64,000 nt of DNA, taken from NCBI GenBank assembly GCA_011620345.1, contig WOZJ01000050.1:66495-130494 (forward strand), read 5' to 3'. This document shows, piece by piece, positions 10,679 through 33,654 of this stretch. The DNA is from Nitrospirota bacterium (GTDB lineage: Bacteria; UBA2233). The notes below the pieces were generated by a model, which saw only the letters and a list, made by a program, of their open reading frames with translations, did no database searches and had not been told where the DNA came from. A program made the position numbers and the translations under genes. Within the stretch, counting starts at the first letter, position 1. Each line of letters starts with the position of its first letter.

Positions 10679-10689
10679 GCCAGCCTCCT

Positions 10690-11133: not shown

Positions 11134-11149
11134 GGCTTCTCCCCCTTTG

Positions 11150-12865
11150 TTAGTATGTCCGCTCGACGGGCTTCCAGTAAGTAAGGCGGACATCACTCGT
11201 CCCAAACTGCAGCCGGCCGTTTTCGAGCGAACAGAGCGTGTGCTTCAAGAAACGCTCGTCGTCGCGTTTGGGGTAGTCCTTCCTAAAATGCCCCCCGCGC
11301 GATTCGGTACGCCTAAGCGCCCCTTCGACGACCACCTCGGCCAACAAGAGCATGTTCTCTAGCTCTAGGACGCTCATGAGATCCGTGTTATACACCAAAG
11401 ACTTGTCGGTGAGCTGGACGTGCTCGAAGCGTTGTTTGAGTTCCTGGACCTTGGCGAGCGTCTTTTGGATGCCCGTTTCGTCCCGGAACACGCCAACCCC
11501 TTCATCCATTGCTGCCCTAAGCTCGTTCCTTATGGCGTAAGGGTTTTCCGACCCACGCTTTTCGAAAAACCGGCCGAAGGCCCGCCATTCGGCCTCGGTC
11601 GCCTCCTTTTCGGAAACCTTAGGCGGAGTCCCAAGCTTTGAGATGTCCCCTAAGACGGCCTGCCCGACGATCCTGCCCCAGACCAGACATTCGGCCGTGG
11701 AGTTTGACCCCAAACGGTTCGCCCCGTGCAAGGACACGCAGGCTGCCTCTCCCGCGGCGTACACACCGGGCAAGGGGGTTCTTCCATTGATGTCGACGTG
11801 AACTCCCCCCATGGAGTAATGCGCGGCCGGACGGATGGGGATTGGCTTTTCGATCGGATCTACCCCTACGAACTTGATGGCCACCTCCCTAATCAACGGA
11901 AGGCGCTCGTTGATCGTCTTTGCCCCTAGATGGCGCAAATCCAGCGCGATGTACCCCATCCTCTCGGGCCCTTCAAACCCTCGGCCCTCGAGGATTTCCG
12001 TCATTTCCGCCCTGGCAACGATATCCCTCGGGGCTAGTTCCATCTTGGCCTTCGCGTAGCGCTCCATGAAGCGTGCGCCAAGGGCGTTCTTCAAGTACCC
12101 CCCTTCGCCTCGGGCGCCCTCTGTAATGAGTACGCCGGACGGGACGAGCCCTGTGGGGTGAAACTGAACAAACTCCATGTCTTTTAGATGAAGCCCAGCC
12201 CTCAAAGCGAGCGCCGCACCATCGCCCGTTGCCGTGATCGAGTAGGTCGTGAAGCTGTACATCCTGCAGCACCCGCCCGTTGCGATGATGAGCGCCTTGG
12301 CCCGGATGAGGAAAAACCCGCCCGTGTTGAGGTCCCAAGCGGCGAGCGCGCAGAAAGCCCCATCCTTGACAATCAGCTCGGCCGCGAACATATCGGGATA
12401 GAGCGTGACCTGGCCGTAACGCTGGAGCGTGTCGTAGAGTGTCTGGACCTCGAAGAACCCAGTCTTGTCCGCGGCATAAACAGTTCGGTCGACGCTGTGC
12501 CCCCCAAAGGGCCTGTACGCGGCCGACCCGTCTTCCCTGCGGGACCATGGGATGCCCAGGTGGTCTAAAAAGAATATTTCCTTTGGTATCGTCTCGACAA
12601 ACCGAAACACGACGTCCTGGTCCGCAAGAAAATCCGAACCTTTTACCGTATCCCAGGCATGAAGATCTAGGGAATCCCCGCCTTCGGGGTGAAGGACGGC
12701 CGCCGTTCCGCCCTCTGCGCATACCGAGTGCGGCCTCAAGATGTGGGTTTTTGAAACGAGCCCGATGTCGATCCGCCCTTGAGAGGCTAAAGCAAGCTCC
12801 AACGCGGCGCGCATGCCCGCAAGCCCAGACCCCAAAATAACGACGTCATGGTTTCTTTGTTCCAC
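11150..12865 (-). CDS. sdhA: succinate dehydrogenase/fumarate reductase flavoprotein subunit
   Basis: DVVILGSGLAGMRAALE (FAD-binding dinucleotide fold), ...RPHSVCAEGG..., HYSMGGV. GTG start with AAGGAGG RBS. Confidence 0.9.
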   Translation of the reverse strand: MEQRNHDVVILGSGLAGMRAALELALASQGRIDIGLVSKTHILRPHSVCAEGGTAAVLHPEGGDSLDLHAWDTVKGSDFLADQDVVFRFVETIPKEIFFLDHLGIPWSRREDGSAAYRPFGGHSVDRTVYAADKTGFFEVQTLYDTLQRYGQVTLYPDMFAAELIVKDGAFCALAAWDLNTGGFFLIRAKALIIATGGCCRMYSFTTYSITATGDGAALALRAGLHLKDMEFVQFHPTGLVPSGVLITEGARGEGGYLKNALGARFMERYAKAKMELAPRDIVARAEMTEILEGRGFEGPERMGYIALDLRHLGAKTINERLPLIREVAIKFVGVDPIEKPIPIRPAAHYSMGGVHVDINGRTPLPGVYAAGEAACVSLHGANRLGSNSTAECLVWGRIVGQAVLGDISKLGTPPKVSEKEATEAEWRAFGRFFEKRGSENPYAIRNELRAAMDEGVGVFRDETGIQKTLAKVQELKQRFEHVQLTDKSLVYNTDLMSVLELENMLLLAEVVVEGALRRTESRGGHFRKDYPKRDDERFLKHTLCSLENGRLQFGTSDVRLTYWKPVERTY

Positions 12866-16981: not shown

Positions 16982-18457
16982 TTAAACGGCCTGGGTCATG
17001 CTTTCTGGAAGGGCAGGAAGCATTTGGCCCCTCCTTTGGTAGCGCACGTGGAATGATAGCGCTTCTTCTAAGATATGGGGGGTATGCCCTCCTCGTTTGA
17101 GTGCATCCTTGCAGTAGTCTTTGAGGATCTCACGATAGCTTGGGTGTGCGCAGTGCTCGACAATCAACGGCGCCCTTTCTCTGGGGGCAAGCCCCCTTAA
17201 ATCGGCAAGCCCCTGCTCGGTGATCAGGATGTCCACGTCATGCTCTGGATGGTCGACGTGGGCCACCATCGGAACGATGCAGGATATTTTCCCCTCCTTA
17301 ACGATTGAAGGGGTAACAAATATAGACAGGTGGCTGTTGCGGGCAAAATCCCCCGACCCCCCTATCCCGTTCATCATGTGCGTGCCCATGATGTGGGTCG
17401 AGTTGATGTTGCCGTAGATGTCCGCCTCGATGGCTGCATTGATGGCCACGATCCCTAGCCTTCGAACCACCTCCGGGTGGTTGGAAATCTCTTGAGGTCT
17501 TAGAATAAGTTTATCCCGGTAGCGTCCAATATTGGCCATGATTTCCCTGTGGGCCTTGGCCGAGAGCGTGATCGAGGTGCACGAGGCAAAGGACATCTTT
17601 CCGGCATCGATCAGCATGAACACGGCATCCTGCAGCACTTCGGAATACATCTTGAGGTTCTCGAAATCTGAGCCTATAAACCCTTCCAAGACAGCGTTTG
17701 CCGTGGCACCGATTCCTGCCTGCAGCGGCGGGAGTTGTTTGCTGAGTCTTCCTTTTTTCACCTCGTGCTTGAGGAAATCGATCAACTGGACTGCGATCGC
17801 TTCGGTCGCCCCGTCGGGCGGTAAGATGCGTGCCTCCGAATCGGGCTTGTTGGTAATGACGATGCCTACAATCTTCGAGGGGTCTACGGGGATGGCCGAA
17901 ACCCCCACCCTGTCTTCGGGGTGGACGATTGGGATTGGTTCCCTGTAGGGCCTTCTTGCTGGGATATAAATGTCGTGGACGCCCTGGAGAGCATCGGGTT
18001 GGGCCAGGTTGATCTCTAGCAGAATCTTGTCGGCGAACAGCGCGTAAGAGGCAGAATTCCCAACCGAGGTTGTCGGTACGAGCCCCCCGTCCTCCTCGAT
18101 GGCCAAAACCTCCAAAAGGGCAACGTCCACCTTGGGCAATTGCCTGGAGCGCAACAGCTCGACGGTTTTAGAGAGGTGTTGGTCGATGAACATCACCTCT
18201 CCTGCGTTGATCGCCTCCCTAAGCATACCATCCGACATAAAAGGAAGCCGTCTTGCGATGACTCCGGCCTCCGTGAGCGGAGAGTCGCAGTCTTCCCCCG
18301 TCGAGGCGCCCGTCATCAGCGTAATCTTGAACGGCTCTTCTTTGGCACGCTCTGCAAGTGCCCTTGGAATCGCCTTAACATCGCCCGCCCGCGTAAACCC
18401 GCTCATTCCGACAACCATCCCGTCTTGGATGAACGAGGCTGCCTCCTCGGCGTTCAT
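16982..18457 (-). CDS. acetyl-CoA hydrolase/transferase family protein (succinyl-CoA:acetate CoA-transferase-like)
   Basis: N-terminus MNAEEAASFIQDGMVVGMSGFT..., ...GIGATANAV..., ...NGIGGSGDF (the GxGGxxD CoA-transferase motif). Start at ATG 18457 with GGGGAAGG RBS. Confidence 0.8.
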   Translation of the reverse strand: MNAEEAASFIQDGMVVGMSGFTRAGDVKAIPRALAERAKEEPFKITLMTGASTGEDCDSPLTEAGVIARRLPFMSDGMLREAINAGEVMFIDQHLSKTVELLRSRQLPKVDVALLEVLAIEEDGGLVPTTSVGNSASYALFADKILLEINLAQPDALQGVHDIYIPARRPYREPIPIVHPEDRVGVSAIPVDPSKIVGIVITNKPDSEARILPPDGATEAIAVQLIDFLKHEVKKGRLSKQLPPLQAGIGATANAVLEGFIGSDFENLKMYSEVLQDAVFMLIDAGKMSFASCTSITLSAKAHREIMANIGRYRDKLILRPQEISNHPEVVRRLGIVAINAAIEADIYGNINSTHIMGTHMMNGIGGSGDFARNSHLSIFVTPSIVKEGKISCIVPMVAHVDHPEHDVDILITEQGLADLRGLAPRERAPLIVEHCAHPSYREILKDYCKDALKRGGHTPHILEEALSFHVRYQRRGQMLPALPESMTQAV

Positions 18458-18574
18458 AACCTTCCCCAAAAGTGACTTGCACCTTAATCTATCGCGGTAC
18501 ACCCTCTAAGCCTCCAGAAAATAAAAAAACATACATTTATAAAATCAAACATATTTGTGTAATCGTCTTTCTAG

Positions 18575-22242: not shown

Positions 22243-22263
22243 GCGGCCCTTTCAGTTCAGATC

Positions 22264-22290
22264 AAAAAGGGGGCCAAAGGCCCCCTTTTT
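22264..22290. terminator. bidirectional intrinsic terminator
   Basis: AAAAA-GGGGGCC-aaa-GGCCCCC-TTTTT: a perfect palindromic hairpin with A-tract and T-tract. It sits between the convergent + strand hydrolase operon (ends 22242) and the - strand korB (ends 22515). Confidence 0.7.
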
Positions 22291-22514
22291 GATCTTGGTC
22301 TCTGAAGCGCAAGAATAGCCTAATCTTTCAAGCTCCGGGGGGGACAGAAATGTCCAGCCTATCATTTGACAGTAGATGGCAATAATCCGTTCCCAGCCCT
22401 ATTAAAGCGAAGCCCAAGGCTTTTCGCCCCGGCAATAGGCCTGCAAATGTGGGGAGGAAACCCCGCCATCCTGAATGGGCAACCCCGATCATAGCGATTC
22501 TCATATCCAAGCTT

Positions 22515-23540
22515 CTAGTTGATCGTCCAGGTCTCGAGCCCGTCGAACAGCGCCATGAAAGAGTTGTCCTTCGCTTTGGCTTTTGCTTTCTTGACTTGAC
22601 CGTCTAGGATTTCGTCGTAGGCTGGGCTTTGAACGTTTCTAAAAATGCCCATAGGAACGGGAAATTCCGGGTAGGTCATGCCAGAGACTAGGAAGGCATA
22701 CGCCGGGTCTTGGAGCCCTGATTTATGAACGAGAAGGCGCTCTTTTGGGGCCTCAGAGGCGGGGACGACCCTTGGCGACATTTCCTCTGAAATAACGGCA
22801 TTTTCTTTGTCTTTGCCGAACAGAAGCGGCTGGCCTTCTTCTAGGTATAGCAAGTGGTCGGGCCTCGATTCCTTGGAAACGATCGGGTCAAACACAGAGT
22901 CGTTAAAGACTACGCAATTCTGCCAAATCTCGATAAAGGCGGAGCCTTTGTGCAACGCCGCCTCTTTCAAAATAGCCTGGAGGTGCGGTCCGTCGACATC
23001 GAACGCCCTCGCCACGAACGTCGCTCCGGCGCCCAAGGCAAGCCGAAGCGGGGAGAACGGGTAGTCTGGAACTCCGTAGGGGGATGATTTGGTAACCTGC
23101 CCCATTTGCGTGGTGGGAGAGTATTGTCCCTTCGTAAGGCCGTATATTTCGTTGTTGAACATGACGATCTTGAGGTCCAAGTTCCTACGGAGCGCATGGA
23201 TCAAATGGTTCCCCCCTATGCTCATGGCGTCTCCGTCGCCCGTCATCACCCAGACGCTCAACTTTGGGTTTGCAAGCTTCACGCCCGTGGCGACCGCCGG
23301 TGCCCTGCCGTGGATGCTGTGGAGCCCGTAGGTGTTCATGTAGTAAGGGAAACGGCTCGAGCATCCTATCCCCGATACGAAAACAAAGTTCTCTCTGGGG
23401 GTGTTCAACTCAGGAAGTATCTTTTGGATGCTTGCCAGGATGGCGTAATCTCCGCAGCCGGGACACCACTTCACCTCCCCGCCTGGAATAAGATCTTTTC
23501 TCGTGAACTTCGGTATGGATGCCGATTCCTGCATTTTCAT
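22515..23540 (-). CDS. korB: 2-oxoglutarate:ferredoxin oxidoreductase beta subunit (TPP-binding), two-subunit Kor type
   Basis: ...WCPGCGDYAIL..., ...GIGCSSRFPYYMNTYGLHSIHGRAPAVATG..., GDGDAMSIGGNHLIHALRRN (TPP/Mg-binding GDGx motif). Confidence 0.85.
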   Translation of the reverse strand: MKMQESASIPKFTRKDLIPGGEVKWCPGCGDYAILASIQKILPELNTPRENFVFVSGIGCSSRFPYYMNTYGLHSIHGRAPAVATGVKLANPKLSVWVMTGDGDAMSIGGNHLIHALRRNLDLKIVMFNNEIYGLTKGQYSPTTQMGQVTKSSPYGVPDYPFSPLRLALGAGATFVARAFDVDGPHLQAILKEAALHKGSAFIEIWQNCVVFNDSVFDPIVSKESRPDHLLYLEEGQPLLFGKDKENAVISEEMSPRVVPASEAPKERLLVHKSGLQDPAYAFLVSGMTYPEFPVPMGIFRNVQSPAYDEILDGQVKKAKAKAKDNSFMALFDGLETWTIN

Positions 23541-25402
23541 GCAACGACTCCTTCAAAAACTTGGTGGACAAATTCTACGATCTCTTGCGCTCGTATAGGA
23601 ACCCCTAGGACACGATTGAACGGGATGGTCTCGATCAAATACGTTGCCCGGAGGATTCTGGAGAGCTGGCCAAGGTTAATTTCGGGGACGATCACTTTTT
23701 TGAAGCGCTTGAGGACCTCGCCCAAGTTCCCAGGCAACGGGTTTAGGTAGCTCAAATGGACCTGGGCGACGGGAATGCCGCTACGGTTAAGCTCATCGAC
23801 GCTCTGGGCGATCGCCCCGAACGTCGAACCCCACCCGACCAAAGCCACCTCAGAGTCGGGGCTGCCTAGCACCTCGACGTCGGGAATGTCTTGCTGAACC
23901 CTGGCGATCTTCTCTTGCCTCGTAAGAACCATTTTCTCGTGATTGTCGGCATCGTAGCTTACGCATCCTGTCAAGGAGTCTTTTTCAAGGCCTCCAATTC
24001 GGTGTTCCAGGCCCGGCGTTCCGGGAATCGCCCACGGCCTTGCAAGGGTTTTCGGATCCCGCAGATAGGGGTAAAAGCCGTTCGGGTCCGTTCGTAACTG
24101 AACTTTTATCTCGGGAAGTTCGTTGGGGCTAGGGATGCGAAATGGCTCCGAGCCGTTTGCCAGGTAGCTGTCCGAGAGGACAATTACGGGGATCATGTAC
24201 TTGGTGGCGATTCTGACAGCCTCGTATGCCATGTGGAAACAATCGGCCGAGTTCTTCGCGGCCAGGACGACGACTGGGGCCTCGCCATGCCGGCCGTAGA
24301 TGGCCTGCATGAGGTCGGATTGCTCGGTCTTGGTCGGCAATCCTGTCGATGGCCCACCCCTTTGGACGTCCACGATGACTAACGGGATCTCAAGCATGAG
24401 GGCAAGACCAAGCGCTTCTTGTTTGAGCGACAAGCCAGGACCGGAAGTGGACGTTGCAGCGATCATTCCAGCAAAGCTAGCCCCGATGGCCGAGCAAATA
24501 CCCGCAATTTCATCTTCAGCCTGGAAGGTGACAACATTTAGGTGCTTTAGCTTGGCCAGCTCATGAAGAATTTCTGATGCGGGCGTGATCGGATAGCTGC
24601 CTAAAAACAGCTCAAGCCCGGCCTGCTTTGCAGCCGCGACAAGCCCGTAAGCAATGGCTTGATTGCCTGTTAAATTAGTGTACAACCCTGGGTTCATCCT
24701 TGCCCGAGGAATATCGTAGAGAGGGAAAGCGCTAAAAATTTCGGCGTTTTCTCCGTAACGATAGCCCGCCACAAGGGTCTTTTCGTTTGCCTCCATAATG
24801 GCAGGATTCTTGGCAAACTTCTTTTTGATCCAGTCGATCGTGGGCTCGATTTTCCGGTTGAACATCCAAGAAATTAGGCCGAGCGCGAAGAAATTCTTGC
24901 AGCGCTCCGCTTGGGCCGGGGTTAAGCCTAGGTCGTTTACGGCAAGCTGGGTAAGCTTGGTGATCTCGACCTCGTAGAGGCGGTAGCTGGACTTGATACG
25001 GTCCAAGTCTTCCTTGGTCAAACCGGCCTTTTGGAGGTTACGCTCTGTAAGGCTCGAGGTGTTCAAAAGCACGATTCCGCCATCTTTGAGCCCCTTGAGG
25101 CCTACTTTGAGGGCTGCGGGGTTCATGGCGACGAGGACGTCTGGGTTGTCTCCTGGCGTGTAAACATCGGATGCCCCGATCTGGAGCTGAAACCCGCTTA
25201 CGCCGTTCAGGGTTCCAATCGGGGCCCGGATTTCTGCGGGATAATCTGGAAAGGTGGCTAGGTCGTTTCCCATCCAGGCGGCTTCCGTTGCAAAAAGGTT
25301 CCCTATCAGCTGCATGCCGTCGCCGGAGTCGCCCGCAAAGCGTACGGTAACTTTGTTGACAATCGTGCGTTCTTGGCTTGCAAGGCCCGAATCGGATGGC
25401 AT
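23537..25402 (-). CDS. korA: 2-oxoglutarate:ferredoxin oxidoreductase alpha subunit (gamma-alpha fusion), Kor type
   Basis: N-terminal gamma-like domain ...VRFAGDSGDGMQLIGNLFA... followed by alpha domains ...GSYPITPASEILHELA.... Start at ATG 25402 with AAGGAGGAG RBS; the track start at 25450 is a TTG with no RBS. Confidence 0.85.
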   Translation of the reverse strand: MPSDSGLASQERTIVNKVTVRFAGDSGDGMQLIGNLFATEAAWMGNDLATFPDYPAEIRAPIGTLNGVSGFQLQIGASDVYTPGDNPDVLVAMNPAALKVGLKGLKDGGIVLLNTSSLTERNLQKAGLTKEDLDRIKSSYRLYEVEITKLTQLAVNDLGLTPAQAERCKNFFALGLISWMFNRKIEPTIDWIKKKFAKNPAIMEANEKTLVAGYRYGENAEIFSAFPLYDIPRARMNPGLYTNLTGNQAIAYGLVAAAKQAGLELFLGSYPITPASEILHELAKLKHLNVVTFQAEDEIAGICSAIGASFAGMIAATSTSGPGLSLKQEALGLALMLEIPLVIVDVQRGGPSTGLPTKTEQSDLMQAIYGRHGEAPVVVLAAKNSADCFHMAYEAVRIATKYMIPVIVLSDSYLANGSEPFRIPSPNELPEIKVQLRTDPNGFYPYLRDPKTLARPWAIPGTPGLEHRIGGLEKDSLTGCVSYDADNHEKMVLTRQEKIARVQQDIPDVEVLGSPDSEVALVGWGSTFGAIAQSVDELNRSGIPVAQVHLSYLNPLPGNLGEVLKRFKKVIVPEINLGQLSRILRATYLIETIPFNRVLGVPIRAQEIVEFVHQVFEGVVA

Positions 25403-25450
25403 ATCGCTCCTCCTTAAAGGATTGAGGCGGGAAGCCCGCTTATGAGACAA

Positions 25451-25474
25451 GGAGCGGCCTCCATAGGCCGCTCC
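25451..25474 (-). promoter_or_regulatory. stable hairpin at the oor-kor junction (oor terminator and/or 5' leader of kor) adjacent to a TATAAT box
   Basis: GGAGCGGCC-tccata-GGCCGCTCC (9-bp stem). A minus-strand TATAAT sits at 25480-25485, immediately upstream of the hairpin. It lies about 50-70 nt upstream of the korA start. Confidence 0.4.
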
Positions 25475-25609
25475 TTTCTATTATACAACCAAACGCACGG
25501 AAAAAAAGAGTATCGACACCTCTTACGGAAGGATTGGCCGCAAATCGCTGCCTTTTTGTTTCTTTTCTAAAATGCCAGCCAGACTTGCTTTGCGGCGAGG
25601 TGGCACGAT

Positions 25610-26164
25610 TTAGTTCGCCACGTAGCGTTCGAGCCCGTAGGTGTATCCCATCTCGAACGCCTTGAGGTTTAGAGCCTCCGTCCCTTTGGGGACTGAGCTT
25701 TCCACCGCCTGCTTCATCGCATCCTTCGAGACAATACCTGTGGTTGCAGTGAGAAACCCTAGCATGACGATATTCGTGACCATCCTGCGGCCGGCCTCCT
25801 CGGCTAGCCGGGTTGCTGGAATGGCGAACGTTCGTAGTGCGGGTAAGGCTTTTTCAAGCTTGACGAGCTCTTCTTCGATTAGGAGCGTTCCTTCGGGCTT
25901 GAGAGAGCTGGCGTATACATTATAGGCCTCCTGCGACATGGCTACGAGAATGTCTGCTTGTGTCGTGTAAGGATAGAGAACCTTCCCCTCTTCGAGCACA
26001 ACCTGGGCACTACAAGCGCCTCCCCTGGCCTCAGGTCCAAAGCTCTGCGTCATGGCGGCTTCTTTCCCCTCGAACAGGGCCCAGGCCTTTCCTAAGATGA
26101 TGCCCATCAAGATGACGCCCTGACCGCCGAACCCAGCAATCCGTATTTCGATGCGTTTATCCAT
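25610..26164 (-). CDS. 2-oxoacid:ferredoxin oxidoreductase gamma subunit
   Basis: ...IRIAGFGGQGVILMG... is the gamma-subunit N-terminus. 184 aa. Confidence 0.85.
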   Translation of the reverse strand: MDKRIEIRIAGFGGQGVILMGIILGKAWALFEGKEAAMTQSFGPEARGGACSAQVVLEEGKVLYPYTTQADILVAMSQEAYNVYASSLKPEGTLLIEEELVKLEKALPALRTFAIPATRLAEEAGRRMVTNIVMLGFLTATTGIVSKDAMKQAVESSVPKGTEALNLKAFEMGYTYGLERYVAN

Positions 26165-26167
26165 TGC

Positions 26168-27049
26168 CTATGCCCCCGCGACTGCTTGTTTTCCGCCCTT
26201 TAGCAGGCCTGCGTAGTGCTCTTGGTAGGCGTCGTAGTACTCCTTTTTCTCGATGTCGAGAAACTTGCCGATCGTGACCTTGTCCTGGTGTCGAAGGTCT
26301 ATGCCGACATCTTTGGTATCGGCCCCGTTTTGTATCACGCAGTGCTCCTTGTAGTATTTCAGCTCTTCGACGGCCCCGCCAAGGCGATTGCGTCTTAAGT
26401 AAATTGTGGGGCAGGGGGCAAGGATTTCCACGAACGAAAACCCTTTTTTCTGAAGTGCTTCCAGTATGGCCTTTTTGGTCTGGACGACGTGGTAGGCAGT
26501 CCACCTGGCCACGTAAACGGCCCCGGAAGAAGCGGCGAGGTGGGGGAGGTTGAACGGCTCCTCAAACACGCCATACGGGGCAGTCGTTTCTATGCTTTCT
26601 TTTGGGGCCGTCGGTGTTGCTTGGCCTCCCGTCATCGCGTAGGTGAAGTTGTTTACCAGGATGACCGTGAGGTCAAGGTTGCGTCTTGCCGCGTGGATAA
26701 AGTGGTTCCCCCCGATACCGGCGAGGTCGCCGTCGCCGGAGTACACGACGACATGGAGTTTTGGGTTGGAGAGCTTAAGCCCCGTTGCGAACGGGATGGC
26801 CCTGCCGTGGGTTGTGTGGAACGAATCGAGCTTCAGGTAACCCGCAACCCGGCCCGTGCATCCTATCCCTGAGACGATGGCAAGCTCATCGAGCGGGATA
26901 CCGCAGTCCATGACCGCCCTGGCAAAGCAGTTGACGGTCGTCCCGATGCCGCAACCAGGACACCAGATATGAGGCATGCGTTCCGTCCGTAAGAAGGGAA
27001 CAACCGGGTTGAGCGGTAGAGTGCATTCGGTGGAATCGTTCGAATTCAT
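26168..27049 (-). CDS. 2-oxoacid:ferredoxin oxidoreductase beta subunit (TPP-binding)
   Basis: ...WCPGCGIG..., ...SGIGCTGRVAGY..., GDGDLAGIGGNHFIHAARRN. Confidence 0.9.
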   Translation of the reverse strand: MNSNDSTECTLPLNPVVPFLRTERMPHIWCPGCGIGTTVNCFARAVMDCGIPLDELAIVSGIGCTGRVAGYLKLDSFHTTHGRAIPFATGLKLSNPKLHVVVYSGDGDLAGIGGNHFIHAARRNLDLTVILVNNFTYAMTGGQATPTAPKESIETTAPYGVFEEPFNLPHLAASSGAVYVARWTAYHVVQTKKAILEALQKKGFSFVEILAPCPTIYLRRNRLGGAVEELKYYKEHCVIQNGADTKDVGIDLRHQDKVTIGKFLDIEKKEYYDAYQEHYAGLLKGGKQAVAGA

Positions 27050-28227
27050 GAAAGGGCCTCCTTGATCGCATGAAAAATATCTTGAGGGTCATGAACGCCA
27101 CCGCCCGGATGACCTACTGGAACGACCGGGCAACGCCCCTGGACGGCGCGCTCGACTTCGTTGGCCACCTGGCCTCGCAGGTTAAGTTCGGGGACGACGA
27201 TTGCCCGAACCCGCGTAGCGAGCTCCTGGATGCGCTGGCCGGGGAAAGGCCATACCGTGATTAACCGAAAGAGGCCCGCTTGAATGCCATCTTGCTTGGC
27301 GAGTTCTATCGCCTTTAGTGCCACGCGCGCGGAAATTCCGTAGGAAATCACCGCGACTTCCGCGCCTTGAAGGTTGCGCTCTTCCCACTTCCATATTTTT
27401 GGGGCGTTTCGTTGGATCTTTTCGATAAGCCTTACGACGAGCTGTCTTTGGGTTGCAAGGGTGGTAGATGGGTAGCCTCGTTCGTCGTGCGTTAAGCCGG
27501 TTACGTGGAACCGGTAGCCGTCTCCCGCCTTGACCATTTCGGGAACGAGGTCCTCTCCGGGGGCGTAAGGGAGGAATTCTTCCGGGGGCTTTTTCGTAAA
27601 GCGCCGCCCGAGCACAGAAATTTCCCTTGCATCCGGAATGACAAGCTTCTCTGTCATGTGGCCGACACACTCGTCCATCATGAAAAACACGGGAACCCGG
27701 TAGGCTTCTGCAAGGTTAAAAGCCTCGATCATGAAATCAAAGCATTCCTGGACGCTTGAAGGACAGAGCGCGATCGCTTCGTAATCCCCGTGCGATCCAA
27801 AGCGGCACTGAAGCATGTCGCCTTGAGCGGGAAGCGTTGGAAGGCCGGTCGATGGGCCTGCGCGCTGGACATCGACAAAAACACATGGAGTCTCCGTCAT
27901 GGCGGCGTACCCCGTATGCTCCATCATGAGCGAAAACCCAGGGCCTGAGGTGACCGTCATGGCCTTGAGTCCTCCCCAAACCGCACCTTGCAGGCAGATG
28001 CTCGATGCGATCTCGTCTTCCATTTGGATGAACATGGCGCCTACGTGTGGCGCCCGTTCGGCGAAGCGTTCGACGATCTCGGTCGAGGGTGTGATTGGAT
28101 AGCCAGCGGCAAACCGACAACCGGCAGCGATCGCACCTTCGCAGGCAGCGTGGTTGCCATCCATAAAATGAGTGCCCGAAAGAACTGCCTCGGGCTCGGC
28201 ATGCTGGTAGAGAAGCTCAGCCATCAA
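27046..28227 (-). CDS. 2-oxoacid:ferredoxin oxidoreductase alpha subunit
   Basis: ...GNHAACEGAIAAGCRFAAGYPITPSTEI... is the alpha-subunit N-terminus. 393 aa. Confidence 0.9.
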   Translation of the reverse strand: MMAELLYQHAEPEAVLSGTHFMDGNHAACEGAIAAGCRFAAGYPITPSTEIVERFAERAPHVGAMFIQMEDEIASSICLQGAVWGGLKAMTVTSGPGFSLMMEHTGYAAMTETPCVFVDVQRAGPSTGLPTLPAQGDMLQCRFGSHGDYEAIALCPSSVQECFDFMIEAFNLAEAYRVPVFFMMDECVGHMTEKLVIPDAREISVLGRRFTKKPPEEFLPYAPGEDLVPEMVKAGDGYRFHVTGLTHDERGYPSTTLATQRQLVVRLIEKIQRNAPKIWKWEERNLQGAEVAVISYGISARVALKAIELAKQDGIQAGLFRLITVWPFPGQRIQELATRVRAIVVPELNLRGQVANEVERAVQGRCPVVPVGHPGGGVHDPQDIFHAIKEALS

Positions 28228-28469
28228 GACGCCTCCTTCATTTCACGCTTGAACGCGTAGATGGCAAAATCGGGACAGTACATGCCGCACAGATCGCACC
28301 CCGAACACTTTTCCGGATCTTTGAGCTCCGGGAAGTGGTAACCCTTTTGGTTGAAGGCGTCTGACATGGAAAGGACATGAACAGGACAGAATTCAACGCA
28401 AACGGTGCAACCTTTGCACCGTTCCTGGGTGATCATGACCACCCCTTCGAAGCGCCTTTTGCGCTGCAC
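28224..28469 (-). CDS. 2-oxoacid:ferredoxin oxidoreductase delta subunit (2x[4Fe-4S] ferredoxin)
   Basis: CKGCTVCVEFCP and CSGCDLCGMYCP clusters. GTG start at 28469 (RBS AAGGGGGA); the alternative ATG is at 28436. The operon order delta-alpha-beta-gamma matches oorDABC-type enzymes. Confidence 0.8.
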   Translation of the reverse strand: MQRKRRFEGVVMITQERCKGCTVCVEFCPVHVLSMSDAFNQKGYHFPELKDPEKCSGCDLCGMYCPDFAIYAFKREMKEAS

Positions 28470-28513: not shown

Positions 28514-28542
28514 AGTATACTCCATGGCGCATGGAACGCCAA
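28514..28542 (-). promoter_or_regulatory. candidate promoter of the oorDABC-like operon overlapping the TTAGTATACT element
   Basis: The minus strand reads TTGGCG-N17-TATACT. The -10 coincides with the palindromic element TTAGTATACTcc (28512-28523). A CCATG-cgc-CATGG inverted repeat lies in the spacer. Confidence 0.35.
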
Positions 28543-28559: not shown

Positions 28560-29201
28560 TTAAAACGGCATACGTTCTTGGGAGGCCTTTTTTGCTGAGC
28601 GTCGTCGCTTGATCAAGAAAACGGCAAGGCTCGCGATTGCCGCGCCCACAAGCCCAAGTCCTGCCGATAGACTTAGATAGGCCTGAAAAGCTTCGTAAGA
28701 GCGGTAGAAGAAATACCCCATGAACGTGAGCGATGTTGCCCAAAGGAGGGCGCTGGCTAGCTCTACGACAAAGAACGCCGCTGCAGCCATGTGAAACATC
28801 CCGGCAAGCAGCGGTACGATGCACCGGAGCGGCCCGATGAATTTACCTAGAACAAGCGCCCAGACGCCGTAACGCGCGATGAAACGCTTGCCCATCTCGA
28901 AGGATTCGGGCCTTAGACTAGCCCTTTTGAGCAGCCAAGAGCTTTTCCTTCCGACAAAGAAGCTAAACGTATCCCCCAAGAAGGCCCCCAGGCTTGCGAC
29001 GAGAATCAGCCAGATGGGGCTGAACGCGCCGTGGAACGCCAGGAACCCAGCGACGACGAGCAAGACCGTTCCCGGAAAGGCGAGGCTCACGAACGCGAGC
29101 GATTCGGCAAACGAGAATGCGAACACGGCCAGATAACCTAGGTCTTGGTGGGCGCTTAGCCATTGGGTCAGCCCAGCAATCGTCACGGCGTAACCTTCCA
29201 A
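28560..29201 (-). CDS. DedA/SNARE-associated family membrane protein
   Basis: ...LAVFAFSFAESLAFVSLAFPGTVLLVVAGFLA... GDTFSFFVGRK... matches the DedA (TVP38/TMEM64) signature and TM layout. Confidence 0.8.
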   Translation of the reverse strand: MEGYAVTIAGLTQWLSAHQDLGYLAVFAFSFAESLAFVSLAFPGTVLLVVAGFLAFHGAFSPIWLILVASLGAFLGDTFSFFVGRKSSWLLKRASLRPESFEMGKRFIARYGVWALVLGKFIGPLRCIVPLLAGMFHMAAAAFFVVELASALLWATSLTFMGYFFYRSYEAFQAYLSLSAGLGLVGAAIASLAVFLIKRRRSAKKASQERMPF

Positions 29202-30004
29202 TCCTTGACCATCCTAGAATGGGCAGAGCAAAGAGGAATGTCCTGCGAAAGGCCTGCGTTTTGGGCCTCATCAGGCCCGTAAAGGGCGATCAACTCATGG
29301 TGCCAATGCGCGTTGTGCAAGCTGCACCTTGCATCGTCACAAAACGCGTTGCCCGTTCGTAAATACGCAAGCGCTTGAAGCGCAAGCCCGGCAACGACCC
29401 GAGGCAGCCTTGAATCCCCATGATCGATGAACAGGGCCTTGAAGGCTCTATTGAGGCCGGCCGGGTCCAACCCGGATCGCTTCAAGAGGTAGTATTCCCT
29501 TGGCTTTGCAGGGGCAAGAACGATGCCTGGAATCGAGATGAGCGCCGGGAAGCCTAAGACATTCATCCGCAAATGGTAACGGCGGTCCGAAGGTTCGAAC
29601 GTTGCCAGCAAGTCGGGCAAAAGCACTACAGGAAGGCTTGATAGGCGGGAAAAACCGGCTTGCTTCAGCAATGGCCGCAGAAAAACTTGAAGCAAGGCCC
29701 CCTCGTAAGGAATGCCGTAAGGTTTTTTTTCCGGGCTGGTCAAAAACCGGCCTTCAAAGGCGACCTCTGCCGGGAAGGGTTCTACGCTTTCGTTAGGGCC
29801 TACCTTGGCCGTAAGCTCTTTGATTCGCAGCTTGGCGAGCATCCCCGCGAGCGTTTCTTTGTCGGCGTTTTTTTCTTCCAAGATAACGCGGTATACATAG
29901 GGCGCGAAAGCGGGGAGGGGAGAGCCCGTTTCCTCGATGGAGGCCTTTAGCTTACGGGCTTCTCCCCCTAGGAGCTCTTCGGCCCCTAATACGACCCAGT
30001 CCAT
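29183..30004 (-). CDS. uncharacterised protein with C-terminal Cys/His cluster, in an operon with thi4 and thiF
   Basis: 273 aa with no recognisable motif except the C-terminal segment CDDARCSLHNAHWHHE...PLCSAH (possible metal site). It overlaps dedA by 19 nt and starts 20 nt after thi4, so co-transcription is implied. Confidence 0.5.
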   Translation of the reverse strand: MDWVVLGAEELLGGEARKLKASIEETGSPLPAFAPYVYRVILEEKNADKETLAGMLAKLRIKELTAKVGPNESVEPFPAEVAFEGRFLTSPEKKPYGIPYEGALLQVFLRPLLKQAGFSRLSSLPVVLLPDLLATFEPSDRRYHLRMNVLGFPALISIPGIVLAPAKPREYYLLKRSGLDPAGLNRAFKALFIDHGDSRLPRVVAGLALQALAYLRTGNAFCDDARCSLHNAHWHHELIALYGPDEAQNAGLSQDIPLCSAHSRMVKDWKVTP

Positions 30005-30023
30005 GGCCGCTTCTTGTTTCTCG

Positions 30024-30821
30024 CTAACGCCCTATTTTTAGGCTTTCCAGGATTGTCTCGGCCACGCGCTTGCCAGAAAGAAGCATACCCGAGAACGTCG
30101 GCCCCATTCTTGGGATTCCATACGTCGTCGTTACGGACATGCCGCAGACGAAAAGCCCCGGGTAGACCTCCCCCGTGTGTTCGACAACAAGGTCCTCGGA
30201 GGCCTCGACCCACATGGAGCCGTGCCCTGGCACCTTGAGCAACCCCTTGGATTCGAGCATCTTGACAACGAGGGCATCATGACCCGTCGCGTCCACGACG
30301 ATTTTCGTTTCCAGGGCGATTGGGTCCACGCAGGTGATTTCTCTCGGTAGCGCCCTGACAGGCGTCCAGTTGACGACCACGCCCTGAACACGGTTGTCTC
30401 TAAGGACGACGTCATCGAAGATCGTCATGTTTGCAAACTTGACCCCAGCATCGCAGGCGGATGCGATGAGTTTTGAGCATGCGTGAGGCCCGTCGGCTAC
30501 GAAAAGACCCTCTTGAGCCTTTTCGTAGGGCACGCCGATCTCATCGAGCACTTTCTCGCCCGGAGCACGGAACGTCACCTTGTTTAGCAGGTATCCCCCG
30601 ATCCAGAACCCGCCGCCCAGATAGTTGTTCCGCTCGACGATGAGCGTTTTTAACCCTTGCCTTGCAAGGTCCCTCCCGGCTATCAGCCCGCTCGGGCCGG
30701 CACCAACGATGATGCAGTCAGACTCTACATACTCGACGAACTGCTTGGCAAAGGTATTGACGATAGCCCTGGTGATTTCCTTTTCCCCTACGGGGGCAAA
30801 CAAACGACCCTCTTGCGCCAC
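30024..30821 (-). CDS. thi4: Thi4-family thiazole synthase (His-type, non-suicidal/sulfide-dependent class)
   Basis: ...[19 protein letters not shown]... (FAD/NAD fold). ...[12 protein letters not shown]... has His at the position of the yeast active-site Cys. ...[29 protein letters not shown]. Confidence 0.85.
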
Positions 30822-30887
30822 TACGCACTCCCAAAGATTTAATTTAAGGATTTGCTAAAACACCTCTTCCATTTTATCCTGCCGGGA

Positions 30888-31625
30888 TTAGCCCTGGCAA
30901 GCGATACAACCGGCCAGTTTTACAACACGGATCCGGGTGCATTCGAGCGAAAGCGTTCGGATAAAATGAATGCTCCCTGCCGTTGAAGAAGGGAGGCCCA
31001 GTAGCCATTTAAGAGCCTCGAGCGCTTGAAGGACCCCGAGAAGCCCCGGCGTAGTTCCGATCACCGGGAAAGGGCTCGAGGCGGCGGGCGGCCTGCGTTT
31101 TCCCAGATAGCAGGCATAGCAGGCCGTTTTTCCTGGGACGAACAGGCCGACCTCGCCGTCAAACCCGTGGACGGCGGCATGAACGAAAGGGATGCGAGCT
31201 CTGAAGCAGGCCTCGTTAAGAAGGATCCGAGATGGAAGGTTGTCTAGGCAATCTAGCGCGATATCGATGTCGCAAAGCAGGCGTTCTGCGCTTTGGGAAT
31301 GAAATTCTTCCTGAAATGCCTCGATCGCCACCGCAGGGTTGGCTTTGGTTAGCTTGTCTTTTGCCGATTCGACCTTCGGCCTTCCTATGTCGGAAGACGT
31401 ATGGAGGGTTTGCCGGTTCAAGTTGGAAGCCTCCACCCGGTCGCGGTCGATCAGCCGAAGCTTGCCGATTCCGGCGTAAGCCAAGTACGTTGCGGCCGGG
31501 CTCCCCAACCCGCCCACGCCGATGAGGGCTACCGAGGCGTTCTTCAGGCGTTCCTGGCCTTCTTCCTGAACCTCGGGCAGGAGCAATTGCCGCTGGTAGC
31601 GTTCATGCTCCTGCTCGGTCAGCAT
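30888..31625 (-). CDS. ThiF/MoeB-family E1-like adenylyltransferase
   Basis: ...RYQRQLLLPEVQEEGQERLKNASVALIGVGGLGSPAATYLAYAGIG...DRD.VEASNLNRQ... C-terminal CxxC pairs (CYACY...CIACQ). Confidence 0.8.
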   Translation of the reverse strand: MLTEQEHERYQRQLLLPEVQEEGQERLKNASVALIGVGGLGSPAATYLAYAGIGKLRLIDRDRVEASNLNRQTLHTSSDIGRPKVESAKDKLTKANPAVAIEAFQEEFHSQSAERLLCDIDIALDCLDNLPSRILLNEACFRARIPFVHAAVHGFDGEVGLFVPGKTACYACYLGKRRPPAASSPFPVIGTTPGLLGVLQALEALKWLLGLPSSTAGSIHFIRTLSLECTRIRVVKLAGCIACQG

Positions 31626-31731: not shown

Positions 31732-33600
31732 TTACTCTTCTAGTGTCGAAACGTCTCCCGTATCAAGCCCTAGCTCTTTCGCCCTCAAGAGCCTCCTTAA
31801 AATCTTTCCGCTCCTCGTTTTTGGCAAATTGTCCATAAAAAGGATACTTTCTGGCTTCGCGATAGGACCGACTTCGTGGCCGACGTGCGCCTTGAGCTCT
31901 TCTTCGAGAGCTATGGAGGGGGAGAACCCTGGTTTTAGTGCGACGAAGGCCTTGATCACGTTACCTTTGATGTCGTGCGGGACACCGATCACGGCCGCCT
32001 CGGCCACAGCAGGATGGGAAACAAGCCCGCTTTCAACCTCTGCCGTGCCGAGCCTGTAGCCAGATACCTTGATAATTTCGTCCGAACGCCCGATGACCCA
32101 GAAGTACCCGTCTTCGTCCAGCCTTGCCGTATCGCCGGTAAAGTATTTTCCTGGAAATTTACTGAAATAGATCCGCTGAAACTCTTCCGGGTCTTTGTAG
32201 AGTGTCCTGGCAAGTGAAGGGAAGGGCCGTGTAAGGACAAGGTAGCCCTCCTCGTTCGGGCCGCAGGGTTCGCCCGATTCCGTGAGAATCTCTGCTCCCA
32301 TTCCAGGCAGAGGCTTGGCGCATGAGCCGGGCTTAAGCGGCGTCTCTGGAAGGGGAGAGATGCAGATCATCCCGGTTTCGGTCTGCCAGTAGGTGTCCAT
32401 GATGGGGCACTGCCCATCGCCGACCGCTCGATGGAACCATTTCCAGGCGGCAGGGTTGATGGGCTCGCCAACGCTGCCTAAGAGCCTTAGCTGCTTCAAG
32501 TCATGGCGCTTGGGCCAGGCATCGCCGTAACGCATCAACCCGCGGATGGCCGTGGGAGTCGTGTAGAAGATGCTGATGCCGTACTTGGAAATGAGATGCC
32601 ACCACCTGTCTGGGTAAGGGGTGGATGGCCCGCCCTCGTAAAGCAAGAGCGTGGCGCCGTTTATCAGGGGGCCGTAGGTCACGTAGGTATGACCCGTAAT
32701 CCAACCTGGGTCTGCCGTACAGAAGTAGCGGTCTTCGTCTCGGATATCGAACACCCATTTGGTCGAGCAGTACGCCCCGACCATATAGCCGCCGTGGACA
32801 TGCACGACGCCTTTGGGCTTGCCCGTGGTGCCCGAGGTGTAGAGGATAAACAGCGGGTCTTCGGCATCCATTGGCTCAGTTTGGACCAAATTGGCCAGCT
32901 TGAGGCTCATCAGGTCGTGGTAGAAGTAGTCACGGCCGGGCTCCATCGAGACCTCCTGGCCGATGTGCTTGACCACGATGACGGACTCTAAGCTTGGCAC
33001 CCTCTTGATGGCCTCGGTTGCTATTTCTTTGAGCGGGACAACCTTTCCGTTCATGTATCCGCCGTCCGCCGTGATCAATAGGCGTGATTCCGCTGACATC
33101 ATCCTCTCTCTTAGGGCATCCGTGCTGAAGCCTCCGTACACGACGCTGTGGACGGCGCCGATTTTGGCGGTTGCGAGCATTGCGATGACCTGCTCGGGAA
33201 TCCTGGGCATGTAGATCGTGACGCGATCGCCCTTGTTGATGCCCATGCTTTTTAATACGGTGGCAAGGCGTGTCACTTCCCGGTTCAGCGCATGGTAGCT
33301 AAGCGTCCTCGTTTCACCGTTTTCGCCCTCCCAGATGATGGCAAGCTTGTTCTTTCTCCACGTTTTGGCGTGGCGATCGAGCGTGTTGGCTACGATGTTG
33401 CATTTCCCGCCAAGGAACCACTTTCCCGTAACGCCGTTTCCTTCAAACACGGCTTGAAAATCCTGGAACCACTCCAGCTCGCGGGCTATCCCGGCCCAAA
33501 AATCGATCGGGTCCTCCTCGGCCTTTTTCGAGAGCTCCTCGTAGGCTGGCCGATCGGGACGCGATAACGTATCGGGCGGGAGATAAACTTCTGTTGTCAT
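31732..33600 (-). CDS. acs: acetyl-CoA synthetase (AMP-forming)
   Basis: ...YTSGTTGKPKGVVH... (AMP-binding motif), ...WWQTETG..., ...GDTARLDEDGYFWVIGRSDEIIKVSGYRLGTAEVES.... Start placed at ATG 33600 (MTTEVY), which is preceded by AGGATGGG; the alternative ATG at 33630 lies inside the palindrome. Confidence 0.85.
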   Translation of the reverse strand: MTTEVYLPPDTLSRPDRPAYEELSKKAEEDPIDFWAGIARELEWFQDFQAVFEGNGVTGKWFLGGKCNIVANTLDRHAKTWRKNKLAIIWEGENGETRTLSYHALNREVTRLATVLKSMGINKGDRVTIYMPRIPEQVIAMLATAKIGAVHSVVYGGFSTDALRERMMSAESRLLITADGGYMNGKVVPLKEIATEAIKRVPSLESVIVVKHIGQEVSMEPGRDYFYHDLMSLKLANLVQTEPMDAEDPLFILYTSGTTGKPKGVVHVHGGYMVGAYCSTKWVFDIRDEDRYFCTADPGWITGHTYVTYGPLINGATLLLYEGGPSTPYPDRWWHLISKYGISIFYTTPTAIRGLMRYGDAWPKRHDLKQLRLLGSVGEPINPAAWKWFHRAVGDGQCPIMDTYWQTETGMICISPLPETPLKPGSCAKPLPGMGAEILTESGEPCGPNEEGYLVLTRPFPSLARTLYKDPEEFQRIYFSKFPGKYFTGDTARLDEDGYFWVIGRSDEIIKVSGYRLGTAEVESGLVSHPAVAEAAVIGVPHDIKGNVIKAFVALKPGFSPSIALEEELKAHVGHEVGPIAKPESILFMDNLPKTRSGKILRRLLRAKELGLDTGDVSTLEE

Positions 33601-33625
33601 TGGAACCCATCCTAGTTGTTCATCA

Positions 33626-33654
33626 AACATTAGTATTTACTATATACTAATGTT
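33626..33654. promoter_or_regulatory. 29-bp AT-rich palindrome upstream of acs (candidate operator)
   Basis: AACATTAGTAT-ttactat-ATACTAATGTT: perfect 11-bp arms. It shares TTAGTAT/ATACTAA half-sites with the elements at 28512 and 47852. Confidence 0.5.

What the first reader, a model, noticed from the sequence alone, without database searches (positions are those of the whole stretch)
22515..28469. Tandem four-subunit (oorDABC-order) and two-subunit (korAB) 2-oxoacid:ferredoxin oxidoreductases
Six same-strand genes: delta (28224-28469), alpha, beta, gamma (down to 25610), then a hairpin/TATAAT junction, then korA (gamma-alpha fusion, 637 aa) and korB. The region ends in a perfect bidirectional terminator. 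Two distinct OFOR types sit back to back next to acs, an acetyl-CoA hydrolase/CoA-transferase and an sdh/frd operon. Two OFOR types together are the classic signature of organisms running a reductive or branched TCA cycle. The strong hairpin (25451-25474) with an adjacent TATAAT between the two clusters suggests separate or attenuated expression.
Basis: partly seen in the sequence, partly recalled or inferred. Interest (0 to 1): 0.5.

Follow-up and report, generated by a model that had tools for sequence, protein, structure and literature searches.

The report
Two tandem 2-oxoglutarate:ferredoxin oxidoreductase operons
Two differently built versions of an ordinary ferredoxin-dependent citric-acid-cycle enzyme (most likely both acting on 2-oxoglutarate) sit back to back in a bacterium from a barely studied lineage; this fits known biology and does not by itself show CO2 fixation by a reverse cycle.

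Summary
The six minus-strand genes are real and intact. They are a four-subunit OFOR (delta-alpha-beta-gamma, 28469-25610) and a two-subunit OFOR (gamma/alpha fusion plus beta, 25402-22515). A 207-nt spacer lies between them, and a perfect palindromic terminator follows at 22259-22295. One correction: korA starts at ATG 25402 (621 aa), not at the TTG inside the hairpin. Both enzymes fall with 2-oxoglutarate enzymes, not with pyruvate or 2-ketoisovalerate enzymes. KorAB carries the same substrate-pocket residues as the Magnetococcus OGOR. The closest outside orthologues of the four-subunit enzyme (72% identity) end an mdh-fumAB-sdhCDAB-sucCD TCA cluster. The pair is therefore probably two OGOR isoenzymes, not a POR plus OGOR pair. 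The spacer holds an invariant TGTATAAT and a hairpin that is kept through compensatory changes in relatives, which supports separate control of korAB. The tandem layout is confined to a narrow lineage, GTDB placeholder phylum UBA2233. [quoted passage not shown] These suit an oxidative, acetate-oxidising ferredoxin-type TCA cycle at least as well as a reductive one. The window holds no rTCA marker. This is a new member of a known kind, of low interest.

The parts
28514..28542 (-). sigma-70-like promoter candidate (TTGGCG-17-TATACT) upstream of the four-subunit operon
   Evidence: Consensus scan. It lies 45 nt upstream of the delta start in the 90-nt gap after the VTT/DedA gene. It is a pattern match only.
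28224..28469 (-). korD/oorD-like delta subunit, 81 aa, 2x[4Fe-4S] ferredoxin
   Evidence: Pfam Fer4 and Fer4_7. The best NCBIfam hits are OorD and OGOR_delta, both below cut-off. Two CxxCxxCxxxCP motifs are present. RBS GGGGG precedes the GTG start.
27046..28227 (-). alpha subunit (domains I-II), 392-393 aa; likely start ATG 28224
   Evidence: POR_N and PFOR_II. NF006412 scores 559 bits against a cut-off of 411. PDB 1YD7 at 3e-115 and 8YS5 OGOR alpha at 1.6e-82. YPITP, Arg122, Thr127 and Leu245 are present.
26168..27049 (-). beta subunit (TPP and [4Fe-4S]), 293 aa
   Evidence: TPP_enzyme_C. Best PDB hit is 8YS5_C OGOR beta at 7.9e-61. Motifs CPGC, GIGCTGR, GDGD...NN and YAMTGGQ are present. 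The gene overlaps the alpha stop by 4 nt.
25610..26164 (-). gamma subunit (domain III, CoA-binding side), 184 aa
   Evidence: Pfam POR. NF006323 scores 216 bits, just under its cut-off of 235.
25403..25609 (-). 207-nt spacer between the two operons. It holds a conserved T7 run (25507-25501), an invariant TGTATAAT (25487-25480), hairpin 1 (25476-25449), hairpin 2 GCGGG-CUU-CCCGC (25439-25427) and RBS AAGGAGG (25415-25409).
   Evidence: Sequence. In the alignment with L090 and L088, the promoter-proximal half is better conserved than the half next to the gamma stop. Folds give z = -3.2 to -4.8, and both stems are kept through compensatory changes. No Rfam family matches.
23537..25402 (-). korA, gamma/alpha fusion (domains III-I-II), 621 aa
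   Evidence: POR, POR_N and PFOR_II. TIGR03710 scores 656.7 bits against a cut-off of 482.75. Best PDB hit is 6N2N_A MmOGOR at 2.8e-80. Pocket residues are Ala56, Thr273, Arg348, Thr353 and Leu472.
22515..23540 (-). korB, beta subunit (TPP and a single [4Fe-4S]), 341 aa
   Evidence: TPP_enzyme_C. TIGR02177 scores 271.5 bits against a cut-off of 261.9. PDB 5B46_B at 7.5e-58 and 6N2N_B at 7e-56. The motifs GIGCSSR.PY and IYGLTKGQYSPT are identical to MmOGOR. The gene overlaps the korA stop by 4 nt.
22259..22295 (.). bidirectional intrinsic terminator shared with the convergent peptidase-S15 operon
   Evidence: 17-nt perfect arms and a 3-nt loop, flanked by A5 and T5. It is conserved in L090 with compensatory changes.

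Best explanation
The locus encodes two complete, independently assembled 2-oxoacid:ferredoxin oxidoreductases. Both most likely act on 2-oxoglutarate:
2-oxoglutarate + CoA + 2 Fd(ox) <-> succinyl-CoA + CO2 + 2 Fd(red).

The upstream enzyme, KorDABC, has the TPP-proximal [4Fe-4S] cluster in beta plus two clusters in its built-in ferredoxin subunit delta. The downstream enzyme, KorAB, is the minimal form. Its gamma and alpha subunits are fused, it has a single cluster, and it must dock a free ferredoxin.

Each unit is translationally coupled within itself by 1-4-nt start/stop overlaps. The two units are separated by a 207-nt spacer that holds a conserved -10-like TGTATAAT. A stable hairpin begins 3 nt after it. 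A transcript started there would carry a 5'-terminal stem-loop.

I infer that korAB can be expressed apart from korDABC, giving the cell two isoenzymes for the same TCA step. By analogy with Hydrogenobacter Kor/For and the aerotolerant mycobacterial KorAB, they probably differ in oxygen tolerance, redox partner or catalytic bias.

SucCD is absent from the window, and ScpC, Sdh/Frd and Acs lie nearby. [quoted passage not shown]

Shown: gene content, cofactor motifs, family placement, and conservation of the layout and the spacer elements. Inferred: substrate, isoenzyme specialisation, promoter and hairpin function, and direction of flux.
For: - Domains and cofactor motifs are complete in all six proteins.
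- KorA and KorB are nearest to the structurally characterised Magnetococcus OGOR (6N2N; 2.8e-80 and 7e-56).
- KorAB has Ala/Thr/Leu/Arg/Leu at the five pocket positions that PMC5020499 identifies (StOFOR1 S41a, T349a, D468a, K49b, L123b). MmOGOR has the same residues. Four of them match the Ala/Thr/Leu/Leu pattern that the paper gives for the 2-OG-specific H. thermophilus KorAB. The fifth position (K49b) is missing from that enzyme.
- These pocket residues are conserved in 119 of 119 KorA homologues and 81 of 81 KorB homologues.
- KorAB homologues are followed directly by sucCD in L025, L049 and L067.
- The four-subunit alpha and beta match far better to the OGOR entry 8YS5 (1.6e-82, 7.9e-61) than to any PFOR (1e-8 or weaker).
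- The 72%-identical orthologues of the four-subunit alpha close an (acn-gltA-)mdh-fumAB-sdhCDAB-sucCD-korDABC cluster. They share its pocket residues Pro/Thr/Leu/Arg/Met.
- The tandem layout and the spacer are conserved in L090, where KorA is 86% identical.
- TGTATAAT is invariant, and both hairpins are kept through compensatory changes.
- ScpC scores 813 bits against a cut-off of 500.
- Precedents for two OGOR types in one genome are B. fragilis kor1AB plus kor2CDABEG (PMC11304471) and H. thermophilus Kor plus For (references in PMC5020499).
Against: - No enzyme of either exact subfamily has been assayed here.
- NCBI's OGOR equivalog models are not reached: alpha 362 bits against a cut-off of 579, beta 244 against 364, delta 64 against 93. 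Only generic '2-oxoacid:acceptor oxidoreductase' models pass.
- The four-subunit beta has Met where characterised OGORs have Leu (L123b position), and gamma has Pro where the KorA-type enzymes have Ala.
- The best PDB match of the four-subunit alpha (1YD7, P. furiosus) has no assigned substrate.
- The spacer has no recognisable -35 element and was not picked up by the promoter scan.
- One TGTATAAT in 64 kb is not improbable by chance: 30 of 100 shuffles had at least one.
- Only three lineages are available to judge covariation.
- The rest of the genome was not seen. A separate POR or sucCD, or their absence, could change the picture.
Confidence: 0.6

Rival explanations
1. One reading: the two enzymes are a complementary pair (a pyruvate synthase plus a 2-oxoglutarate synthase, or two carboxylating enzymes) that marks a reductive or branched TCA cycle used for CO2 fixation or biosynthesis.
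For: - OFORs are reversible, and MmOGOR, the nearest structure to KorAB, comes from an rTCA organism.
- sdh/frd, acs and a CoA-transferase lie within 10 kb.
- ScpC could also run succinate -> succinyl-CoA to feed reductive carboxylation.
- Sulfolobus two-subunit OFORs accept both pyruvate and 2-OG (PMC5020499).
Against: - Neither enzyme resembles POR. PFOR matches are 1e-6 or weaker for KorB, 1e-8 for the four-subunit alpha, and absent for KorA.
- The KorAB pocket matches the 2-OG-specific enzymes and not StOFOR (Leu instead of Asp468a, Arg instead of Lys49b).
- The window has no ACL, CCS/CCL or POR.
- Orthologues of the four-subunit enzyme sit with citrate synthase and sucCD.
- Homologous KorAB works oxidatively in aerobic M. 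tuberculosis, with no pyruvate activity (PMC2773412).
Confidence: 0.12
2. One of the two, most likely the four-subunit enzyme, is a broad-range or branched-chain/aromatic 2-oxoacid oxidoreductase used in amino-acid catabolism. In that case the pair covers different substrates rather than the same one.
For: - NCBI names the family only '2-oxoacid:acceptor oxidoreductase' (NF006412).
- A VorB subfamily model gives 289 bits.
- The pocket has Met and Pro where OGORs have Leu and Ala.
- Aminotransferases and peptidases occur elsewhere in the window.
Against: - The VorB score is below its cut-off of 399 and well below the 559 bits for NF006412.
- The closest characterised relative is a 2-OG enzyme (8YS5).
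- Orthologues with the same pocket lie immediately after sucCD in a TCA operon.
Confidence: 0.15
3. The tandem layout is a recent accident. korAB was inserted by horizontal transfer downstream of korDABC, the two are redundant without specialisation, and the hairpin is simply the old korDABC terminator or a stabilising element.
For: - The tandem is limited to a narrow lineage. It is absent at 67% KorA identity and in 79 loci from other phyla.
- The next KorA relatives come from unrelated phyla.
- The hairpin scores as a terminator-like site only on the opposite strand.
Against: - Both units are intact, and the arrangement plus the spacer elements persist down to 86% protein identity.
- The hairpin has no U-tract in the direction of transcription.
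- G+C content of korAB (0.54-0.55) lies within the window's range.
Confidence: 0.1

Closest known systems
Magnetococcus marinus OGOR (KorAB, PDB 6N2N/6N2O), with Hydrogenobacter thermophilus KorAB and Mycobacterium tuberculosis KorAB (Rv2454c-2455c)
   Same: Two-subunit architecture: a gamma/alpha fusion (domains III-I-II) plus beta, with no ferredoxin domain and a single [4Fe-4S]. The residues at the five substrate-pocket positions are identical to MmOGOR. TIGR03710 and TIGR02177 cut-offs are passed.
   Different: - The match is distant overall (274 bits, E 2.8e-80, with most of domain III only weakly aligned).
- KorB has a roughly 125-aa C-terminal region outside the profile, 341 aa against 292 in MmOGOR. 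The 79 KorB-family homologues aligned over about 330-345 residues, so they appear to share it.
- Here the genes sit directly behind a second OFOR operon. None of the 79 other korAB loci examined shows this.
Helicobacter pylori-type OorDABC (PDB 8YS5/8YS6) and archaeal four-subunit KGOR
   Same: Gene order delta-alpha-beta-gamma, three clusters, the same domain set, and OGOR-type best hits for the delta, alpha and beta subunits.
   Different: - It belongs to a separate, very widespread subfamily (NF006412), about 68% identical across Acidobacteriota, Bacteroidota, KSB1 and others.
- The OorA and OorB equivalog cut-offs are not reached.
- It has Met instead of Leu at the L123b position.
- That 8YS5 is the H. 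pylori enzyme is my inference from subunit lengths, not from the database entry.
Genomes with two OGOR isoenzymes: Hydrogenobacter thermophilus Kor + For, and Bacteroides fragilis kor1AB + kor2CDABEG
   Same: A minimal two-subunit OGOR coexists with a multi-subunit, ferredoxin-containing one in the same organism (PMC11304471; references 52-54 in PMC5020499).
   Different: I know of no description of those pairs as adjacent. Here they are head to tail on one strand, with a conserved regulatory spacer. The multi-subunit partner here has four subunits, not five or six.
CoA-transferase variant of the ferredoxin-dependent oxidative TCA cycle (Desulfobacter, Desulfuromonas, Desulfurella, probably Geobacter)
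   Same: OGOR and a Cat1-family succinyl-CoA:acetate CoA-transferase are encoded close together, with Sdh/Frd nearby (PMC9768450).
   Different: The pathway is only inferred from 64 kb. Citrate synthase, aconitase, IDH and the terminal electron acceptor were not seen. An AMP-forming Acs is also present.

Membership tests
2-oxoacid:ferredoxin oxidoreductase (OFOR) superfamily | TPP-binding beta subunit with GDG(X)n-NN motif | tested here: met
   Both beta subunits hit TPP_enzyme_C (2e-31, 2.6e-34). The sequences carry GDGDAMSIGG...FNN and GDGDLAGIGG...VNN.
2-oxoacid:ferredoxin oxidoreductase (OFOR) superfamily | Four Cys ligands of the TPP-proximal [4Fe-4S] in beta | tested here: met
   KorB has CPGC, GIGCS and QNC. 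The four-subunit beta has CPGC, GIGCT and APC. Assignment is by alignment to 6N2N_B and 5B46_B.
2-oxoacid:ferredoxin oxidoreductase (OFOR) superfamily | YPITP motif and the Arg that binds the 2-oxoacid carboxylate in alpha | tested here: met
   YPITP and Q-R-G/A-GPSTG are present in both alphas. They are invariant in 119 and 120 homologues respectively.
2-oxoacid:ferredoxin oxidoreductase (OFOR) superfamily | Domain III (gamma), either as a separate subunit or fused | tested here: met
   Pfam POR in the separate gamma (9e-35) and at KorA residues 43-230 (9e-27).
Two-subunit KorAB-type OGOR | Passes curated family models for the gamma/alpha fusion and beta | tested here: met
   TIGR03710 656.7 bits against 482.75. 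TIGR02177 271.5 bits against 261.9. These are subfamily models and are not substrate-specific.
Two-subunit KorAB-type OGOR | Substrate pocket like 2-OG-specific enzymes (StOFOR1 positions S41a, T349a, D468a, K49b, L123b) | tested here: met
   Ala/Thr/Leu/Arg/Leu, the same as in MmOGOR in the HMMER alignments. The H. thermophilus KorAB pattern Ala/Thr/Leu/-/Leu is taken from PMC5020499.
Two-subunit KorAB-type OGOR | CoA-dependent 2-oxoglutarate oxidation or succinyl-CoA carboxylation activity | not testable with these tools
   Needs an enzyme assay.
Four-subunit OorDABC/KGOR-type OGOR | Reaches NCBIfam OGOR equivalog cut-offs (OorA NF007206, OorB NF007207, OorD NF007205) | tested here: not met
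   362 bits against 579, 243.6 against 364, and 64.2 against 93. The generic NF006412 alpha model is passed (559 against 411).
Four-subunit OorDABC/KGOR-type OGOR | Delta subunit with two [4Fe-4S] motifs, and gene order delta-alpha-beta-gamma | tested here: met
Four-subunit OorDABC/KGOR-type OGOR | Genomic association with the succinyl-CoA step of the TCA cycle | tested here: met
   Orthologues at 72% identity lie directly after sucCD in TCA clusters (L085, L086, L093). The association is absent from the window itself and from L094.
Reductive TCA cycle gene set | Citrate-cleaving enzyme (ATP-citrate lyase or citryl-CoA synthetase plus lyase) | tested here: inconclusive
   None among the ORFs of at least 150 aa that were scanned across the 64-kb window. 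The rest of the genome is not available.
Reductive TCA cycle gene set | Pyruvate synthase (POR) alongside OGOR | tested here: not met
   Neither OFOR at this locus is POR-like. A POR elsewhere in the genome cannot be excluded.

The most novel reading that the evidence does not exclude
The conserved TGTATAAT-hairpin spacer may be a switch that selects between two OGOR isoenzymes with opposite catalytic bias or different oxygen tolerance. That would let a small-genome member (about 1.8 Mb) of the uncharacterised phylum UBA2233 run one ferredoxin-dependent TCA cycle in either direction, oxidising acetate or fixing CO2 by a reversed oxidative cycle.

One possible mechanism is as follows. The 3' arm of hairpin 1 (GCUCCUU) is complementary to the korA Shine-Dalgarno region. 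The choice of transcript 5' end (read-through versus internal start) could therefore also gate korA translation.
Probability: 0.1. Interest if true: 0.5.

Novelty: new member of a known kind. Interest (0 to 1): 0.2.

Why it matters
The finding gives a first, modest view of central carbon metabolism in GTDB placeholder phylum UBA2233, a candidate phylum with almost no literature. [quoted passage not shown] This fits acetate turnover in anoxic, hydrocarbon-affected habitats. It also guards against over-reading: two OFOR architectures side by side should not be scored as evidence for autotrophy unless a citrate-cleaving enzyme and a pyruvate synthase are also found. Beyond that, the biology is well precedented.

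Tried and rejected
- **Known RNA elements.** An Rfam search of the spacer and the terminator region found only sub-threshold chance hits. No known riboswitch or leader is present.
- **Small ORF after korB.** The 60-aa ORF at 22328-22510 lies in a roughly 170-nt insert that is absent from the 86% relative L090. It has no Pfam hit and is not repeated in the window. I rejected it as part of the system.
- **Hairpin as the korDABC terminator.** It has no U-tract in the sense direction. The terminator scan scored it only on the plus strand, where no gene reads into it.
- **Leptospirillum or Nitrospira origin.** I considered this because NCBI labels the nearest MAG Nitrospirota. I dropped it once UBA2233 proved to be its own GTDB placeholder phylum.
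- **MmOGOR structure paper.** I tried to read it for the 2-OG-binding residues, but it is not held. I used the StOFOR paper's pocket positions instead.
- **Six-subunit complex.** I considered that the six genes encode one complex. I rejected this because each unit has its own complete alpha, beta and gamma domain set.


Full report
**Observation**

ORF listing and Pfam/NCBIfam scans confirm six intact minus-strand genes.

| Gene | Coordinates | Length | Domains |
|---|---|---|---|
| delta | 28469-28224 | 81 aa | two CxxCxxCxxxCP motifs |
| alpha | 28227/28224-27046 | 392-393 aa | POR_N + PFOR_II |
| beta | 27049-26168 | 293 aa | TPP_enzyme_C |
| gamma | 26164-25610 | 184 aa | POR |
| KorA | 25402-23537 | 621 aa | POR + POR_N + PFOR_II (gamma/alpha fusion) |
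| KorB | 23540-22515 | 341 aa | TPP_enzyme_C |

The ATG at 25402 follows AAGGAGG, and gene callers on independent metagenome contigs give 621 aa.
- Starts and stops overlap by 1-4 nt within each unit. The exception is beta/gamma, where there is a 3-nt gap.
- The two units are separated by 207 nt.
- The palindrome at 22259-22295 has perfect 17-nt arms flanked by A5 and T5. It serves korB and the convergent peptidase-S15 operon.
- The palindrome recurs in the 86% relative L090 with compensatory changes.

**Organism**

- The best genome match is 'Nitrospirae bacterium UBA2233' (KorA 97%).
- UBA2233 is a GTDB placeholder phylum. [quoted passage not shown]
- The window's G+C of 0.52-0.59 agrees.

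**What the enzymes are**

*KorA and KorB*
- They are nearest to the Magnetococcus OGOR structure 6N2N (2.8e-80 and 7e-56) and to the Sulfolobus OFORs. PFORs match barely or not at all.
- PMC5020499 defines five pocket positions in StOFOR1: S41a, T349a, D468a, K49b and L123b. At these positions KorAB has Ala/Thr/Leu/Arg/Leu, the same residues as MmOGOR.
- That paper reports Ala/Thr/Leu/-/Leu for the 2-OG-specific H. thermophilus KorAB, which matches.
- The residues hold across 119 KorA and 81 KorB homologues.
- In three loci from other phyla, korAB is followed directly by sucCD.
- M. tuberculosis KorAB, which has the same architecture, is 2-OG-specific and aerotolerant and works in the oxidative cycle (PMC2773412).

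*The four-subunit enzyme*
- It passes the generic model NF006412 (559 bits against a cut-off of 411) but not the OorA, OorB or OorD equivalogs.
- Its best structural relatives are 1YD7 (P. furiosus, substrate unassigned) and the OGOR entry 8YS5 (1.6e-82 for alpha, 7.9e-61 for beta). PFOR scores 1e-8.
- The family is very widespread, with thousands of homologues at about 68% identity.
- The closest outside orthologues (72%) terminate an acn-gltA-mdh-fumAB-sdhCDAB-sucCD-korDABC cluster. They share the window enzyme's pocket residues Pro/Thr/Leu/Arg/Met.

I therefore assign both enzymes to 2-oxoglutarate, with more confidence for KorAB than for KorDABC.

**Layout and regulation**

- The tandem is kept in L090, with a 218-nt spacer.
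- It is absent at 67% KorA identity, where korAB stands alone (L091, L092).
- It is also absent from 79 korAB loci of other phyla.
- In the spacer, the half nearest korA is the conserved part. It holds a T7 run, an invariant TGTATAAT and hairpin 1 (12 bp; fold z-scores -3.2 to -4.8).
- Hairpin 1 is rebuilt with different sequence in L088. A second small hairpin covaries in L090.
- There is no U-tract after hairpin 1 in the sense direction, so it is not a canonical terminator for korDABC.
- A start about 7 nt after the -10 element would put the stem at the 5' end of the mRNA. This suggests an internal promoter with a 5' stabilising stem-loop. That is an inference.
- The promoter scan found no -35/-10 pair in the spacer. 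It found one upstream of delta, at 28542-28514.
- No Rfam family matches the spacer.

**Context and direction**

[quoted passage not shown] It scores 813 bits on NF053853 (cut-off 500) and 752 bits on TIGR03458 (cut-off 658.7).
- acs lies at 31732-33630.
- An sdh/frd operon in the order A-C-D-B lies at 12865-9459.
- No sucCD, ACL, CCS/CCL or POR is in the window.
- All of these enzymes are reversible, so direction cannot be decided here.

**Comparison and novelty**

- Two OGOR types in one genome are already known, in H. thermophilus (Kor/For) and B. fragilis (kor1AB/kor2CDABEG, PMC11304471).
- What is particular here is their adjacency and the conserved spacer, in an unstudied phylum.
- This is a new member of a known kind. 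The interpretation as an rTCA signature is only partly supported.

Noticed in passing
window 39845-42555 (-): A thiolase (NF004810, 683 bits) is followed by a 497-aa HMG-CoA-synthase-like protein. Its C-terminus carries zf-ChsH2 and OB_ChsH2_C (DUF35-like) domains. This looks like the archaeal thiolase/HMGCS/DUF35 module with HMGCS and DUF35 fused, and it hints at a mevalonate pathway in this bacterium.
   Followed up: partly
window 16982-18502 (-): [quoted passage not shown] It is syntenic in L090.
   Followed up: partly
window 9459-12865 (-): The succinate dehydrogenase/fumarate reductase operon has the unusual order flavoprotein, two membrane subunits, then iron-sulfur subunit (A-C-D-B). 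This differs from the C-D-A-B order in the TCA clusters of L085 and L093.
   Followed up: no
window 22300-22515: A roughly 170-nt lineage-specific insert lies between the korB stop and the terminator. It is absent from L090, 90-99.5% conserved in close relatives, and not repeated elsewhere in the window. Its 60-aa ORF has no family match.
   Followed up: partly
window 29183-31625 (-): Thi4-type thiazole synthase, ThiF and a DUF6775/DUF7001 putative metallopeptidase lie directly upstream of the OFOR locus. These families seem to me mostly archaeal (from memory, not tested). The block is syntenic in L088 and L089.
   Followed up: no
L002 141-2004: One metagenome contig carries korA split into 222-aa and 411-aa ORFs. 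This is a frameshift or an assembly error in an otherwise 99%-identical copy.
   Followed up: no
whole window; L005: The source organism belongs to GTDB placeholder phylum UBA2233, although NCBI labels it Nitrospirota. The only literature found is a taxonomy review and one tar-patty metagenome study that lists UBA2233 among lineages carrying nitrogenase genes.
   Followed up: partly
window 60616-62362 (+): A NuoI-like 2x[4Fe-4S] protein (216 aa as called, below the NuoI cut-offs) is followed by an Mrp/NUBPL Fe-S cluster carrier. No other nuo genes are adjacent.
   Followed up: no
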